From Escherichia phage Perceval, in the sequence record OV696612: a DNA stretch of 50,143 nucleotides. One strand, written 5' to 3'. Below the pieces are notes generated by a model that did not search any database, had not been told where the DNA came from, and was given only the letters and a program-made list of their open reading frames with translations. A program made the translations under genes and the position numbers. Positions 26,333 through 27,299 of this stretch are shown one piece after another (position 1 is the stretch's first letter; each line of letters opens with the position of its first letter).

Positions 26333-26540
26333 TCGACGGAAGCAGTTCCGTTTGGTCTATGATGCAGTTGTCCGGCAGGCGCTCTGTGACGCAAAAGAAC
26401 GATAGGAGTAGCATTGAAGTGAACGAGGTTATGCTTGTCTTATATTATCCTCTATTTTAAAAACATCAGCTGGTTGTGTAAGAGTTTTTATTGTTTTATC
26501 TTGTTGACTTTGCTTTTATGAAAACAGAGTGATTGATACA

Positions 26541-27299
26541 ATGAAAACCTTAAGTGGGAAAGAGTTTAGGAAATTATTTAATCGTTATGAGACAGGATTC
26601 TATCTAAGTGAGTTTGAATACTTAAAGGACTTTGATCCTTTGTTTCCTGAATGCGTAGGGAAAGAATTAAAGTTGGGTTATAAACGAAAAGTTGATGTAT
26701 GGTGCGAAGAGGATGCTGCGCTATATGCAGAATTTATAGCTACAAAAGAAAGGCTGAAAAGAGGCCGGTTAATCCTAAAAATAAACCAAGTGTGGTCGCG
26801 TGTATATCCTGCTTATATTTATGCAATTGAAGAAAGAATAAATGTCAGGGCAAAGGGGAGAGAGTCATTTAAGTATGAAACTGTGCAAGAAAAACAATGT
26901 AAACTTTCCATAATGTTAGATGGTCTGAAAGACCTTGAATGTGAAATAGCTATGATTTCAAGTGAGTTTGAAATTGAAAAACACTCTATGCACTATTTTT
27001 ATATGATTTTTGATATTGAACGCTATATAAATGACTGCAGTTACTTTGTTTTTTCTGCTGCTAAAGTTGTTAAAGGCGTGATTCAATGCATTGGTTACAT
27101 TGACAAAAATAACAAAGCAAGTTGCGATGAATTTTATTCAGGCAGCTATGAATGCTTGGATGATGATCAGGAAACACTGAACTATTTAAATGAATCATGC
27201 GCAGAGGGTATAGACGCTGATAAAGATCTCATCAGGAAGAATGAGTTATTAGCCTTATCCCTGAAGGAATTGTATCAACTTCTCGTTTCAAAAAAATAA
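26541..27299 (+). CDS. hypothetical protein (252 aa from ATG 26541; GTG alternative at 26529), AT-rich moron
   Basis: Long ORF in an AT-rich segment with upstream TTGACT promoter-like hexamer; no recognisable motif; sits between the sit operon and attP. Confidence 0.6.
   Translation: MKTLSGKEFRKLFNRYETGFYLSEFEYLKDFDPLFPECVGKELKLGYKRKVDVWCEEDAALYAEFIATKERLKRGRLILKINQVWSRVYPAYIYAIEERINVRAKGRESFKYETVQEKQCKLSIMLDGLKDLECEIAMISSEFEIEKHSMHYFYMIFDIERYINDCSYFVFSAAKVVKGVIQCIGYIDKNNKASCDEFYSGSYECLDDDQETLNYLNESCAEGIDADKDLIRKNELLALSLKELYQLLVSKK

What the first reader, a model, noticed from the sequence alone, without database searches (positions are those of the whole stretch)
26529..27299. AT-rich 256-aa orphan ORF next to attP
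A long ORF with its own TTGACT-type promoter-like sequence, far more AT-rich than neighbouring genes, with no motif I can recognise. Accessory genes beside attP in lambdoid phages are frequently lysogen-expressed exclusion or defence functions.
Basis: inference. Interest (0 to 1): 0.5.

Follow-up and report, generated by a model that had tools for sequence, protein, structure and literature searches.

The report
Orphan cargo gene of phage 21
This is a real, conserved accessory gene of the classic coliphage 21, lying beside the phage attachment site; its protein resembles nothing known, it moves between phages, conjugative elements and defence islands as a small cassette, and its function is still untested.

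Summary
The ORF is real. The window is a phage-21-type lambdoid genome in cos-to-cos order. The ORF is 100% identical to the unannotated phage 21 gene CPT_21_31 (also WP_000567449.1 and PHROG 20520). The true start is probably the ATG at 26541 (252 aa), not the GTG at 26529.

The gene lies in the non-essential b region, between the sitABCD cargo operon and attP. It has about 34% GC, against about 49% in its flanks. dN/dS is 0.16-0.41. It occurs in 760 of 5426 complete E. coli genomes.

The gene travels as a cassette of about 1 kb with a conserved 5' block. It sits in a prophage, ICEs and islands, four times within 10 kb of known defence genes. Sister phages carry a different AT-rich segment at the same spot.

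A defence or exclusion role is plausible but unproven (about 0.35). Interest is moderate.

The parts
26541..27299 (+). Coding sequence, 252 codons plus stop. The product is identical to phage 21 CPT_21_31 (UMO75446.1) and WP_000567449.1.
   Evidence: ORF list. 100% tblastn identity to phage 21 and 18 other lambdoid phages. Annotation in the phage 21 record and in E. coli genomes. ATG start from homologue alignments and PHROG 20520 coverage 5-256. dN/dS 0.16-0.41.
26429..26540 (+). Conserved 5' block of the cassette, about 112 bp. The nearly invariant core GGTTGTGTAAGAG...TTGAC spans 26472-26509, and an SD-like GAG/GGAG lies about 10-13 nt before the ATG. This is the candidate promoter/operator, but no consensus sigma-70 promoter could be placed.
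   Evidence: DNA alignments of 6 and 11 loci. Mean pairwise identity at -95..-31 is 0.855, against 0.814 at third codon positions and 0.72 in adjacent non-coding stretches. Homology boundaries cluster at about -110 to -114. Promoter scans were negative or inconsistent. No stable RNA fold.
27300..27384 (+). Conserved 3' block of the cassette, ending in ...TTCGCTCA. It contains a GGGAYATC/GATGTCC inverted repeat but is not a convincing intrinsic terminator.
   Evidence: Alignment and boundary mapping. RNA folds have z-scores of -0.3 to -0.7. No + strand terminator was called here.
26170..26323 (+). Remnant of an IS3-family insertion sequence (left end plus the 5' part of orfA). It precedes the cassette here and in three other contexts.
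   Evidence: Blastn matches of 85-92% to genes annotated 'IS3 family transposase' on many plasmids. Shared upstream homology of 248-378 bp with L002, L015 and L016. The motif GTGCCAGRAGCGGARG occurs once per locus, next to the cassette.
27624..28027 (.). Context: attP region of the phage. Int arm-type sites lie at 27624-27641 and 27985-28027 and flank the phage-borne icd 3' fragment (27756-27923).
   Evidence: Direct-repeat family D1. The icd fragment is annotated in E. coli records. attP and the icd pseudogene are annotated in the phage 21 record.
28037..29179 (-). Context: tyrosine integrase of the same phage, with xis at 29169-29405.
   Evidence: ORF list. Annotation in L001 and phage 21.
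22393..25842 (-). Context: sitDCBA iron/manganese transporter cargo operon, divergent from the ORF.
   Evidence: ORF lists. Annotation.

Best explanation
Shown: the ORF is a genuine accessory gene under purifying selection, of phage-21-type lambdoid phages, and is identical to phage 21 CPT_21_31. It sits in the dispensable b region between the sitABCD cargo operon and attP. In an integrated prophage it therefore ends up at the attR edge, next to host DNA. It is the coding part of an AT-rich cassette of about 1 kb: a conserved 5' block of about 110 bp, 252 codons, and a 3' block of about 85 bp. This cassette has landed independently in a prophage, in ICEs and in genomic or defence islands of several Enterobacteriaceae, always without a conserved partner gene. 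The product is a soluble protein of 252 residues. Its N-terminal half is basic and its C-terminal half acidic. The predicted fold is a small beta-alpha-alpha-beta-beta module packed on a long antiparallel four-helix bundle, with no recognisable catalytic motif.

Inferred: it is transcribed from its own conserved 5' block in the lysogen, like other lambdoid morons. It acts by stoichiometric binding rather than catalysis, on a nucleic acid or protein of a competing mobile element. That would make it an exclusion- or defence-type conflict factor that benefits the lysogen and the prophage.

Confidence that it is a real accessory cargo gene is about 0.9 or higher. The 0.35 below refers to the defence/exclusion function.
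For: Identity and context:
- Searches give 100% identity to phage 21 CPT_21_31, with the same sit-ORF-icd'-attP-int layout.
- Searches show the window is a cos-to-cos lambdoid genome.
- One search shows the attR-edge position in Nissle 1917.

Real gene:
- One search gives dN/dS of 0.16-0.41.
- One search finds it in 760 of 5426 complete E. coli genomes at 99% identity or more, single copy.

Foreign, self-contained cassette:
- GC is 0.34-0.38 in every host.
- Homology boundaries are discrete.
- The 5' block is more conserved than synonymous sites.

Dispensable and swappable:
- Phage 4A7 and its relatives replace window 25980-27478 with another AT-rich 499-bp segment.
- That segment is present in 298 E. 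coli genomes.

No partner gene.

Conflict-type neighbourhoods:
- In Intestinirhabdus the cassette directly abuts PD-Lambda-4 A and a truncated B.
- In an Aeromonadaceae MAG a type I R-M system lies 2.4 kb away.
- In Klebsiella, Lamassu LmuA/B lies 7-10 kb away.
- In Citrobacter a T5orf172/PD-Lambda-1-like gene and a WYL regulator are nearby.

Protein properties:
- The absence of enzyme motifs comes from reading alignment A1.

Evolutionary pattern: a narrow family with no detectable relatives is typical of arms-race genes.
Against: - There are no expression data, and no consensus promoter or terminator.
- There is no significant hit to any of the 5027 PADLOC models.
- Defence genes are common in mobile-element cargo regions generally, so four of ten neighbourhoods is suggestive only.
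- Some contexts fit counter-defence equally well, namely ICE cargo sites and an island carrying the KlcA antirestriction gene, DUF932 and RadC.
- The structure model rests on 15 sequences of 63% identity or more, and the five models range from pLDDT 58 to 79.
- The N-terminal module folded alone is unreliable, at pLDDT 46.
- Expert annotators who used HHpred left the gene as hypothetical (PMC9119081).
Confidence: 0.35

Rival explanations
1. Counter-defence (anti-defence) protein. The cassette would help the carrying phage or ICE establish itself by binding and blocking a host immune component.
For: - It sits in ICE cargo positions.
- It sits in an island next to the KlcA-type Antirestrict gene, DUF932 and RadC.
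- In Intestinirhabdus the cassette lies where the 3' half of PD-Lambda-4_B should be.
- The C-terminal half is acidic and no enzyme motif is present.
- Many known inhibitors are small helical binders (my own knowledge).
Against: - The gene is on the strand opposite to the early pL/int transcript and far from early promoters.
- Whole-protein pI is about 5.2, not the about 4 typical of DNA mimics.
- It is retained intact at 99% identity or more in 759 E. coli records, where it sits at the edge of an integrated prophage. That fits a lysogen-benefit gene better.
- No similarity to known anti-defence folds was found in PDB or BFVD.
Confidence: 0.2
2. DNA-binding regulator. An excisionase/AlpA/MerR-like winged-helix N-terminus on a coiled-coil oligomerisation bundle would autoregulate through the conserved 5' block and modulate host or element genes.
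For: - The predicted order beta-alpha-alpha-beta-beta followed by a long helix is the topology of Xis/AlpA/MerR DNA-binding domains (my own knowledge).
- An F-P...G...V.W.E motif resembles AlpA. hhalign aligned VWCEED to AWLESE, but without significance.
- The N-terminal half has net charge +5.
- The 5' block is nearly invariant over 36 nt, with a partial palindrome CAAnnnnTTG.
Against: - There is no profile match to HTH_17, Phage_AlpA or MerR at E up to 10.
- hhalign probability is below 1% against AlpA and against the window's own Xis.
- The isolated N-terminal model is poor.
- No structural hit to wHTH proteins was visible.
- There is no conserved target gene next to it.
Confidence: 0.15
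3. Orphan immunity protein against a polymorphic toxin (CDI, Rhs, T6SS or bacteriocin), carried as a protective cassette.
For: - An Imm50 immunity gene lies immediately upstream in the Aeromonadaceae MAG.
- It is AT-rich, stand-alone and all-helical, and it belongs to a narrow, fast-evolving family.
Against: - No homologue lies downstream of a toxin domain gene in any of the 10 contexts.
- At 252 aa it is large for an immunity protein.
Confidence: 0.07
4. Selfish or neutral passenger: a gene hitch-hiking with an IS3-family remnant and with sitABCD, with no benefit to phage or host.
For: - An IS3 remnant lies directly upstream here and in three other contexts.
- In E. coli it is almost always linked to sitA: 739 genomes hold the contiguous 25800-28100 stretch, against 760 with the ORF.
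Against: - Selection is purifying, with dS up to 0.82.
- The reading frame is intact in all full-length homologues.
- The 5' block is conserved.
- It has been acquired independently at different sites without sit.
Confidence: 0.1

Closest known systems
Phage 21 gene CPT_21_31 (UMO75446.1; GenBank OL657228.1), E. coli WP_000567449.1, PHROG 20520
   Same: It is the same gene. It is 100% identical at amino-acid level, with the same neighbours sitA, the icd pseudo-3' end, attP and int.
   Different: Nothing differs. All of these records call it a hypothetical protein of unknown function. The genome announcement (PMC9119081) only says that the morons of phage 21 differ from those of lambda.
Lambdoid morons and lysogenic-conversion genes (lambda lom and bor, HK97 gp15, sitABCD)
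   Same: It is a dispensable insert of deviant base composition in a lambdoid genome. It is absent from near-identical sister phages and is oriented independently of the neighbouring operon.
   Different: Its own promoter and terminator are not demonstrable. The product is cytoplasmic, not a membrane protein. Its function is unknown.
Lit of the e14 element (defence gene of another icd-integrating lambdoid element)
   Same: Both are accessory genes placed beside the icd attachment site of an element that carries its own icd 3' end (my own knowledge for e14; for this phage).
   Different: Lit is a zinc metalloprotease that cleaves EF-Tu. This protein shows no HExxH or other protease motif on reading the sequence alignment, and no family or fold search returned a protease. 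It also lies on the opposite side of att from int.
Excisionase/AlpA/MerR-type winged-helix DNA-binding domains
   Same: The predicted N-terminal beta-alpha-alpha-beta-beta order is followed by a long helix, and the segment is basic.
   Different: There is no statistical sequence or profile similarity. The module is not confidently folded on its own.
Generic antiparallel helical bundles (spectrin repeats, CorA cytoplasmic domain, ribosome recycling factor)

Membership tests
Phage moron (Hendrix/Juhala sense) | Extra DNA absent from closely related phages at the same position | tested here: met
   Phage 4A7 and its relatives share about 96% identical flanks, up to window 25979 and from 27479. 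In between they carry a different 499-bp segment instead of the 1.5 kb holding the ORF. Only 19 phage records hold the ORF.
Phage moron (Hendrix/Juhala sense) | Base composition different from the surrounding genome | tested here: met
   GC is 0.34 against 0.47-0.49.
Phage moron (Hendrix/Juhala sense) | Own promoter and terminator flanking the gene | tested here: inconclusive
   Conserved 5' and 3' blocks exist. No consensus sigma-70 promoter, intrinsic terminator or stable hairpin was found.
Phage moron (Hendrix/Juhala sense) | Expressed from the repressed prophage | not testable with these tools
   This needs RNA-seq, TSS mapping or proteomics of lysogens.
Known anti-phage defence systems (PADLOC-DB v2.0) | Significant match to a defence-protein HMM | tested here: not met
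   The only hit is PDC-M13C, a candidate system with a 70-position profile. It covers 24 residues at E 0.0005-0.008 in 6 of 15 members.
Known anti-phage defence systems (PADLOC-DB v2.0) | Location in defence islands (guilt by association) | tested here: inconclusive
   Four of ten non-E. coli contexts have known defence genes within 10 kb. No matched background was computed.
Known anti-phage defence systems (PADLOC-DB v2.0) | Protection against phage infection | not testable with these tools
   This requires plaque assays.
Excisionase/AlpA/MerR-like wHTH proteins | Profile match to HTH_17, Phage_AlpA or MerR | tested here: not met
   Pfam gave no hit at E up to 10 for the N-terminal 72 aa of 10 members or at E up to 1 for full-length members. 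hhalign against AlpA and Xis gave probability below 1%.
Excisionase/AlpA/MerR-like wHTH proteins | beta-alpha-alpha-beta-beta fold | tested here: inconclusive
   The secondary-structure order fits in the full-length model, with pLDDT 65-93 in that part. The domain modelled alone has pLDDT 46, and no fold-search hit could be attributed to it.
HEPN RNases (Abi-type effectors) | R-x(4-6)-H catalytic motif in a helical bundle | tested here: not met
   The only invariant His (H151) is preceded by E-K-x-S-M, and no Arg lies 4-6 residues upstream (alignment A1).
Membrane superinfection-exclusion proteins (SieB, Rex B, gp15 type) | Transmembrane segment or signal peptide | tested here: not met
   The maximum 19-residue Kyte-Doolittle hydropathy is 1.46, and the N-terminus is not hydrophobic.

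The most novel reading that the evidence does not exclude
The ORF founds a new family of single-protein conflict factors (anti-phage exclusion or anti-defence) that is orphan in both structure and sequence. It is carried on a self-contained AT-rich cassette of about 1 kb. That cassette hops between phage-21-type prophages, ICEs and defence islands of Enterobacteriaceae. It is fixed in about 14% of complete E. coli genomes, including Nissle 1917, ATCC 25922, LF82 and JJ1886. It would work by non-catalytic binding through a previously undescribed module-on-four-helix-bundle architecture.
Probability: 0.3. Interest if true: 0.65.

Novelty: new member of a known kind. Interest (0 to 1): 0.4.

Why it matters
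The gene belongs to one of the founding model phages and sits in roughly one in seven complete E. coli genomes. These include Nissle 1917, ATCC 25922, LF82, NC101 and JJ1886, strains I know as probiotic, reference or pathogenic isolates.

If it is an exclusion or counter-defence factor, it would influence phage susceptibility and phage-therapy outcomes in exactly those strains. It would also add a protein family with no known relatives to the conflict repertoire.

The sitA-attP interval of phage-21-like phages also appears to be a swap site for small AT-rich cassettes, which makes it a cheap place to look for further such genes. If the gene turns out to be neutral cargo, it matters little.

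Tried and rejected
Searches on the protein that returned nothing useful:
- Pfam, NCBIfam and PADLOC on the protein and on all 15 family members.
- PDB sequence search with a single sequence and with profiles.
- An exhaustive HMM search of 1.84 billion representative proteins, which found only the family itself and fragments.
- Foldseek against BFVD and PDB, with best E 0.11 and 0.14. The afdb50 library was unavailable.

Tests of the N-terminal module:
- AF2 of the N-terminal 72 residues alone gave pLDDT 46, too poor to search with.
- hhalign of the N-terminal profile against an AlpA sequence and the window's own Xis gave no support.
- An attempt to build an AlpA family alignment returned a single protein.

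RNA-level and promoter tests:
- Rfam found nothing relevant.
- RNA folding of the 5' and 3' blocks gave z-scores near 0.
- Promoter and terminator scans in three loci found nothing consistent.

Partner gene and mobility:
- The divergent upstream genes in two loci are unrelated, E 0.1.
- No remnant of the 200-aa tyrosine recombinase seen in Klebsiella and Citrobacter is present in the window.
- An integron-like repeated site was ruled out: the motif GTGCCAGRAGCGGARG occurs only once per locus.

More contexts:
- IMG/VR gave only three identical E. coli prophage contigs.
- GTDB genomes gave three loci.
- The divergent 'plasmid' copy (NZ_CP098209.1) is a frameshifted, error-laden copy of the same sit-ORF block, not an informative homologue.

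Motifs rejected by reading alignment A1:
- HEPN Rx4-6H
- HD
- ExxH diiron
- ZAS H-x3-C-x2-C
- CxxC zinc sites
- HExxH

Rejected interpretation: the CII box TTGT-N6-TTGT annotated in the phage 21 record (window 26491-26504) is not a conserved feature, because the first tetrad is absent from most other loci.

Literature: no paper mentions the protein or a function for it.
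Full report
**Observation**

The ORF exists as described: 26529..27299, + strand, 256 aa from a GTG. 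It is strongly AT-rich. GC is 0.32-0.36 in 300-nt windows across it, against 0.45-0.54 over the sit genes to the left and 0.41-0.47 over int to the right. The gene itself is 0.341 GC, against 0.494 and 0.474 in the flanks.

Two details need correcting.
- Start codon. All homologues, the PHROG 20520 profile (which covers residues 5-256) and the curated phage 21 record start at the ATG at 26541, giving 252 aa. The four codons before it are not conserved, whereas MKTLSGKEF is invariant.
- Promoter. The hexamer TTGACT is present at 26504-26509, but no -10 element lies 16-18 nt downstream. The consensus scan calls no + strand promoter upstream of the ORF in the window. Two homologous loci give no shared site: the only + strand upstream match is a TTAATA/TATAAT pair in L012 whose -10 overlaps the start codon, and L003 has none.

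**What the window is**

The window starts with terminase genes and runs through head and tail genes, J and a side tail fibre. It continues through sitDCBA, the ORF, an icd 3' fragment, int, xis, exo-bet-gam, the immunity region, replication genes and Q. This is a lambdoid genome in vegetative, cos-to-cos order.

The ORF is 100% identical at protein level to gene CPT_21_31 (UMO75446.1, 'hypothetical protein') of Escherichia phage 21 (OL657228.1). It is also identical in 18 other sequenced lambdoid phages. The phage 21 record shows the same order: sitDCBA, a small IS3-like ORF, CPT_21_31, a 51-aa ORF, the icd pseudo-3' end, attP, int, xis.

In the window, the Int arm-type repeat TTCCCCAAAA occurs once at 27624-27641 and three times at 27985-28027. 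These flank the icd fragment at 27756-27923. 'Next to attP' is therefore correct: the stop codon is about 325 bp from the first arm site. In an integrated prophage the gene ends up at the attR edge, directly before the displaced icd fragment and host genes, as in E. coli Nissle 1917.

The genome announcement for phage 21 used HHpred and still left the gene as hypothetical. It notes only that the morons of phage 21 differ from those of lambda (PMC9119081).

**It is a real gene under selection**

A search of 5.8 billion proteins finds 22 clusters at 63-100% identity. All full-length members are 252-261 aa. They come from E. coli, Citrobacter, Klebsiella, Mangrovibacter and one Aeromonadaceae MAG. 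Nei-Gojobori dN/dS over 15 pairs is 0.16-0.41, with dS up to 0.82.

In E. coli the ORF is present in 760 of 5426 complete genomes, as a single copy. It is 99% identical or more in 759 of 761 records. These genomes include Nissle 1917, ATCC 25922, JJ1886, LF82 and NC101. In 739 genomes the whole stretch 25800-28100 (sitA-ORF-icd') is contiguous.

**It is an orphan**

- Pfam and NCBIfam give nothing for the protein or for any of 15 family members.
- PDB sequence and profile searches give nothing below E 0.1.
- An exhaustive HMMER profile search of 1.84 billion representative proteins returns one full-length representative of the same family plus 12 fragments of it, and nothing else.
- PADLOC returns only a 24-residue match to the candidate-system profile PDC-M13C, at E 0.0005-0.008 in 6 of 15 members. 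I do not regard this as evidence.

**Predicted protein**

AlphaFold2 on the 15-sequence alignment gives pLDDT 79 and pTM 0.72, although the five models range from pLDDT 58 to 79. The model has a small N-terminal module (strand 3-5, helices 6-15 and 22-31, strands 40-43 and 50-55). Four long helices follow (56-105, 115-153, 157-189, 209-251), with one low-confidence acidic loop.

- Foldseek against PDB and BFVD finds nothing below E 0.1.

The protein is soluble, with a maximum hydropathy of 1.46. Its pI is about 5.2. The N-terminal half has net charge +5 and the C-terminal half -11. Invariant residues include H151, C166, C183, C195 and D207-D209. None of them forms a motif I recognise; HEPN, HD, diiron, zinc-finger and HExxH motifs are all absent on reading the alignment.

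The beta-alpha-alpha-beta-beta order followed by a long helix is the topology of excisionase/AlpA/MerR DNA-binding domains (my own knowledge). I could not substantiate this:
- There is no Pfam hit for the N-terminal 72 residues.
- hhalign probability is below 1% against an AlpA sequence and against the window's Xis.
- The module modelled alone is unreliable, at pLDDT 46.

**Cassette anatomy**

I aligned the locus from the window with ten loci from other organisms. Homology starts about 80-130 bp before the ATG, most often at -110 to -114. It ends about 20-87 bp after the stop, often at ...TTCGCTCA. This defines a cassette at window ~26429-27384.

Within the 5' block, 26472-26509 (GGTTGTGTAAGAG...TTGAC) is nearly invariant. 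Mean pairwise identity at -95..-31 is 0.855, against 0.814 at third codon positions and 0.72 in the neighbouring non-coding stretches. Neither flank folds into a significant RNA structure, and Rfam finds nothing relevant. I therefore read the 5' block as a DNA-level promoter/operator that consensus scanning cannot resolve.

In the window and in three other contexts the cassette is preceded by the same IS3-family left-end and orfA remnant (window 26170-26323). It matches genes annotated 'IS3 family transposase' at 85-92% on many plasmids.

Gene GC is 0.34-0.38 in every host, whatever the local background.

**The locus is a swap site**

Phage 4A7 and its relatives are about 96% identical to the window up to 25979 and again from 27479. 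In between they carry a different AT-rich 499-bp segment instead of the 1.5 kb that holds the IS remnant and the ORF. That alternative segment is present in 298 E. coli genomes.

It contains an unannotated 79-aa ORF with an R-N-x3-H signature. This ORF has no Pfam hit and only a weak match (E 0.012) to the Cas13b HEPN region. Its relatives are unannotated proteins of 100-136 aa. This is a lead, not a finding.

**Neighbourhoods elsewhere**

No gene is consistently adjacent, and the divergent upstream genes of two loci are unrelated. The contexts are:
- a Citrobacter telavivensis island holding a 200-aa tyrosine recombinase, DUF1963, a T5orf172 protein with PD-Lambda-1/PDC-S57 similarity and a WYL regulator;
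- Klebsiella variicola, directly after the same recombinase, with Lamassu LmuA/LmuB 7-10 kb away;
- Mangrovibacter;
- three different positions in ICEs;
- a Citrobacter werkmanii island with KlcA antirestriction, DUF932 and RadC;
- an Aeromonadaceae MAG, between an Imm50 gene and a type I R-M system;
- a metagenomic Enterobacteriaceae locus;
- Intestinirhabdus alba, where the cassette follows a full-length PD-Lambda-4_A and a PD-Lambda-4_B truncated at profile position 141 of 303.

Four of ten independent contexts thus have known defence genes within 10 kb. This is suggestive, but mobile-element cargo regions are rich in such genes anyway, and I computed no matched background.

**Mechanism**

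Shown:
- It is a self-contained, horizontally mobile, selectively maintained accessory gene.
- It encodes a soluble helical protein with no catalytic signature and no partner gene.
- It sits in a dispensable, swappable slot beside attP.

Inferred:
- It is expressed from its own 5' block in the lysogen. Its orientation is opposite to the pL/int transcript, and it is separated from the late operon by the antisense sit operon.
- It acts by binding a nucleic acid or protein of a competing element, as an exclusion- or defence-type function. I put this at about 0.35.

Rivals:
- Counter-defence, about 0.2. The ICE and antirestriction-island contexts, the acidic C-terminal half and the position at the broken PD-Lambda-4_B favour it. 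The strand and the attR-edge position in 760 E. coli genomes argue against it.
- A wHTH-plus-coiled-coil regulator, about 0.15. This is not exclusive of the others.
- An orphan immunity protein, about 0.07.
- Neutral passenger of the IS remnant and sit, about 0.1. Purifying selection and independent acquisitions argue against it.

**Comparison with what is known**

As an object the gene is already in the databases (phage 21 CPT_21_31, WP_000567449.1, PHROG 20520), always without a function. I found no paper that discusses it.

It meets two of the four defining features of a moron: absence from sister phages and deviant composition. The promoter/terminator criterion is inconclusive, and expression cannot be tested here. 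It fails the membership tests for known defence families, HEPN effectors, membrane exclusion proteins and, at sequence level, excisionase/AlpA/MerR domains.

I therefore file it as a new, uncharacterised member of a known kind (lambdoid accessory or moron cargo). There is a roughly 0.3 chance that it founds a new conflict-protein family.

**Verdict**

The defence interpretation is reasonable but unproven. Interest is moderate (0.4). A specialist would not be surprised by an orphan moron beside attP. Three things make it a worthwhile, cheap experimental target:
- its complete lack of relatives;
- its mobility as a cassette into defence loci;
- its prevalence in important E. coli lineages and in a classic model phage.

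**Limits**

- The caps on family, fold, structure and homologue searches were exhausted.
- afdb50 was unavailable.
- No expression data could be accessed.
- The structural model rests on a shallow alignment.

Noticed in passing
window 1-50143: The whole window reads as a complete phage-21-type lambdoid genome in cos-to-cos order: Nu1/A terminase at 190-2635, then Q and lysis genes near the right end. It is therefore not a chromosomal segment with two prophages. E. coli FXCREC028 has the same head-to-int order in its chromosome, which there implies tandem prophages.
   Followed up: partly
window 22393-25842 (- strand): The sitDCBA iron/manganese transporter operon is carried as phage cargo between the tail-fibre genes and the ORF. 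It is also in phage 21. Mathieu et al. 2020 (PMC6969025) report it on 70% of infant-gut lambda-like phages.
   Followed up: partly
window 26170-26323: An IS3-family left end plus an orfA 5' remnant lies here, 85-92% identical to annotated IS3 transposase genes on more than 2000 plasmids. It travels with the ORF cassette in 4 of 11 contexts. Its end motif GTGCCAGRAGCGGARG occurs once per locus, always beside the cassette.
   Followed up: partly
window 26491-26504: TTGT-N6-TTGT matches the CII-box pattern, and the equivalent site is annotated as such in the phage 21 record. The first tetrad is TGGT or TAGT in most non-E. coli loci. It is therefore either chance or a phage-lineage-specific change that could put the gene under CII control.
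   Followed up: partly
window 27422-27577 (+) and 27541-27564 (-): A 51-aa ORF with one hydrophobic stretch lies here (phage 21 CPT_21_32, 'putative membrane protein'). It is overlapped on the minus strand by a 10-bp GC-rich hairpin called terminator-like. Given its position just beyond attP in the path of the int transcript, the hairpin could be the tI/sib-type element of this phage.
   Followed up: no
window 27338-27355 / 27421-27438: An 18-nt inverted repeat, 89% complementary with 65 nt between the arms, starts inside the ORF's conserved 3' block (27300-27384) and ends about 50 nt beyond it. Its meaning is unknown.
   Followed up: no
L012 9471-9941 and 5574-9425 (Intestinirhabdus alba): The ORF cassette begins right after a PD-Lambda-4_B gene truncated at profile position 141 of 303, next to an intact 1283-aa PD-Lambda-4_A. 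The cassette has apparently replaced or interrupted half of a known defence system. The contig ends 613 bp after the ORF, so a simple insertion cannot be told apart from a replacement.
   Followed up: partly
L003 9235-9837 and L002 5385-5987: A 200-aa tyrosine recombinase, 82% identical between Klebsiella variicola and Citrobacter telavivensis, lies upstream of the cassette. It is directly adjacent in Klebsiella. No trace of it exists in the window. Whether it mobilises the cassette is unknown.
   Followed up: partly
L025 10223-10721 (phage 4A7; replaces window 25980-27478): This is the alternative AT-rich 499-bp allele of the sitA-attP interval, found in 298 E. coli genomes. It holds an unannotated 79-aa ORF (10279-10518) carrying an EIRNKLAHG (R-N-x3-H, HEPN-like) motif. 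Both alleles end with ...TCGCTCATAA(T/C)AG(A/G)CATT(C/A)ACTACA.
   Followed up: partly
window 39251-40777 (+) and 41127-42170 (-): Two further large ORFs of 508 aa and 347 aa lie between the replication genes and the nin/Q region. The second corresponds to an alpha/beta hydrolase in the related E. coli prophage, where an inverse-autotransporter pseudogene and an IS66 element occupy the same region. This is a second cargo slot of the phage.
   Followed up: no
L011 (NZ_CP098209.1, 14.8-kb 'plasmid'): The only 'divergent' E. coli copy (72.5% by tblastn) is the same sit-ORF block riddled with frameshifts. sitA is also broken. This is most likely an error-laden assembly rather than a real variant.
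   Followed up: yes
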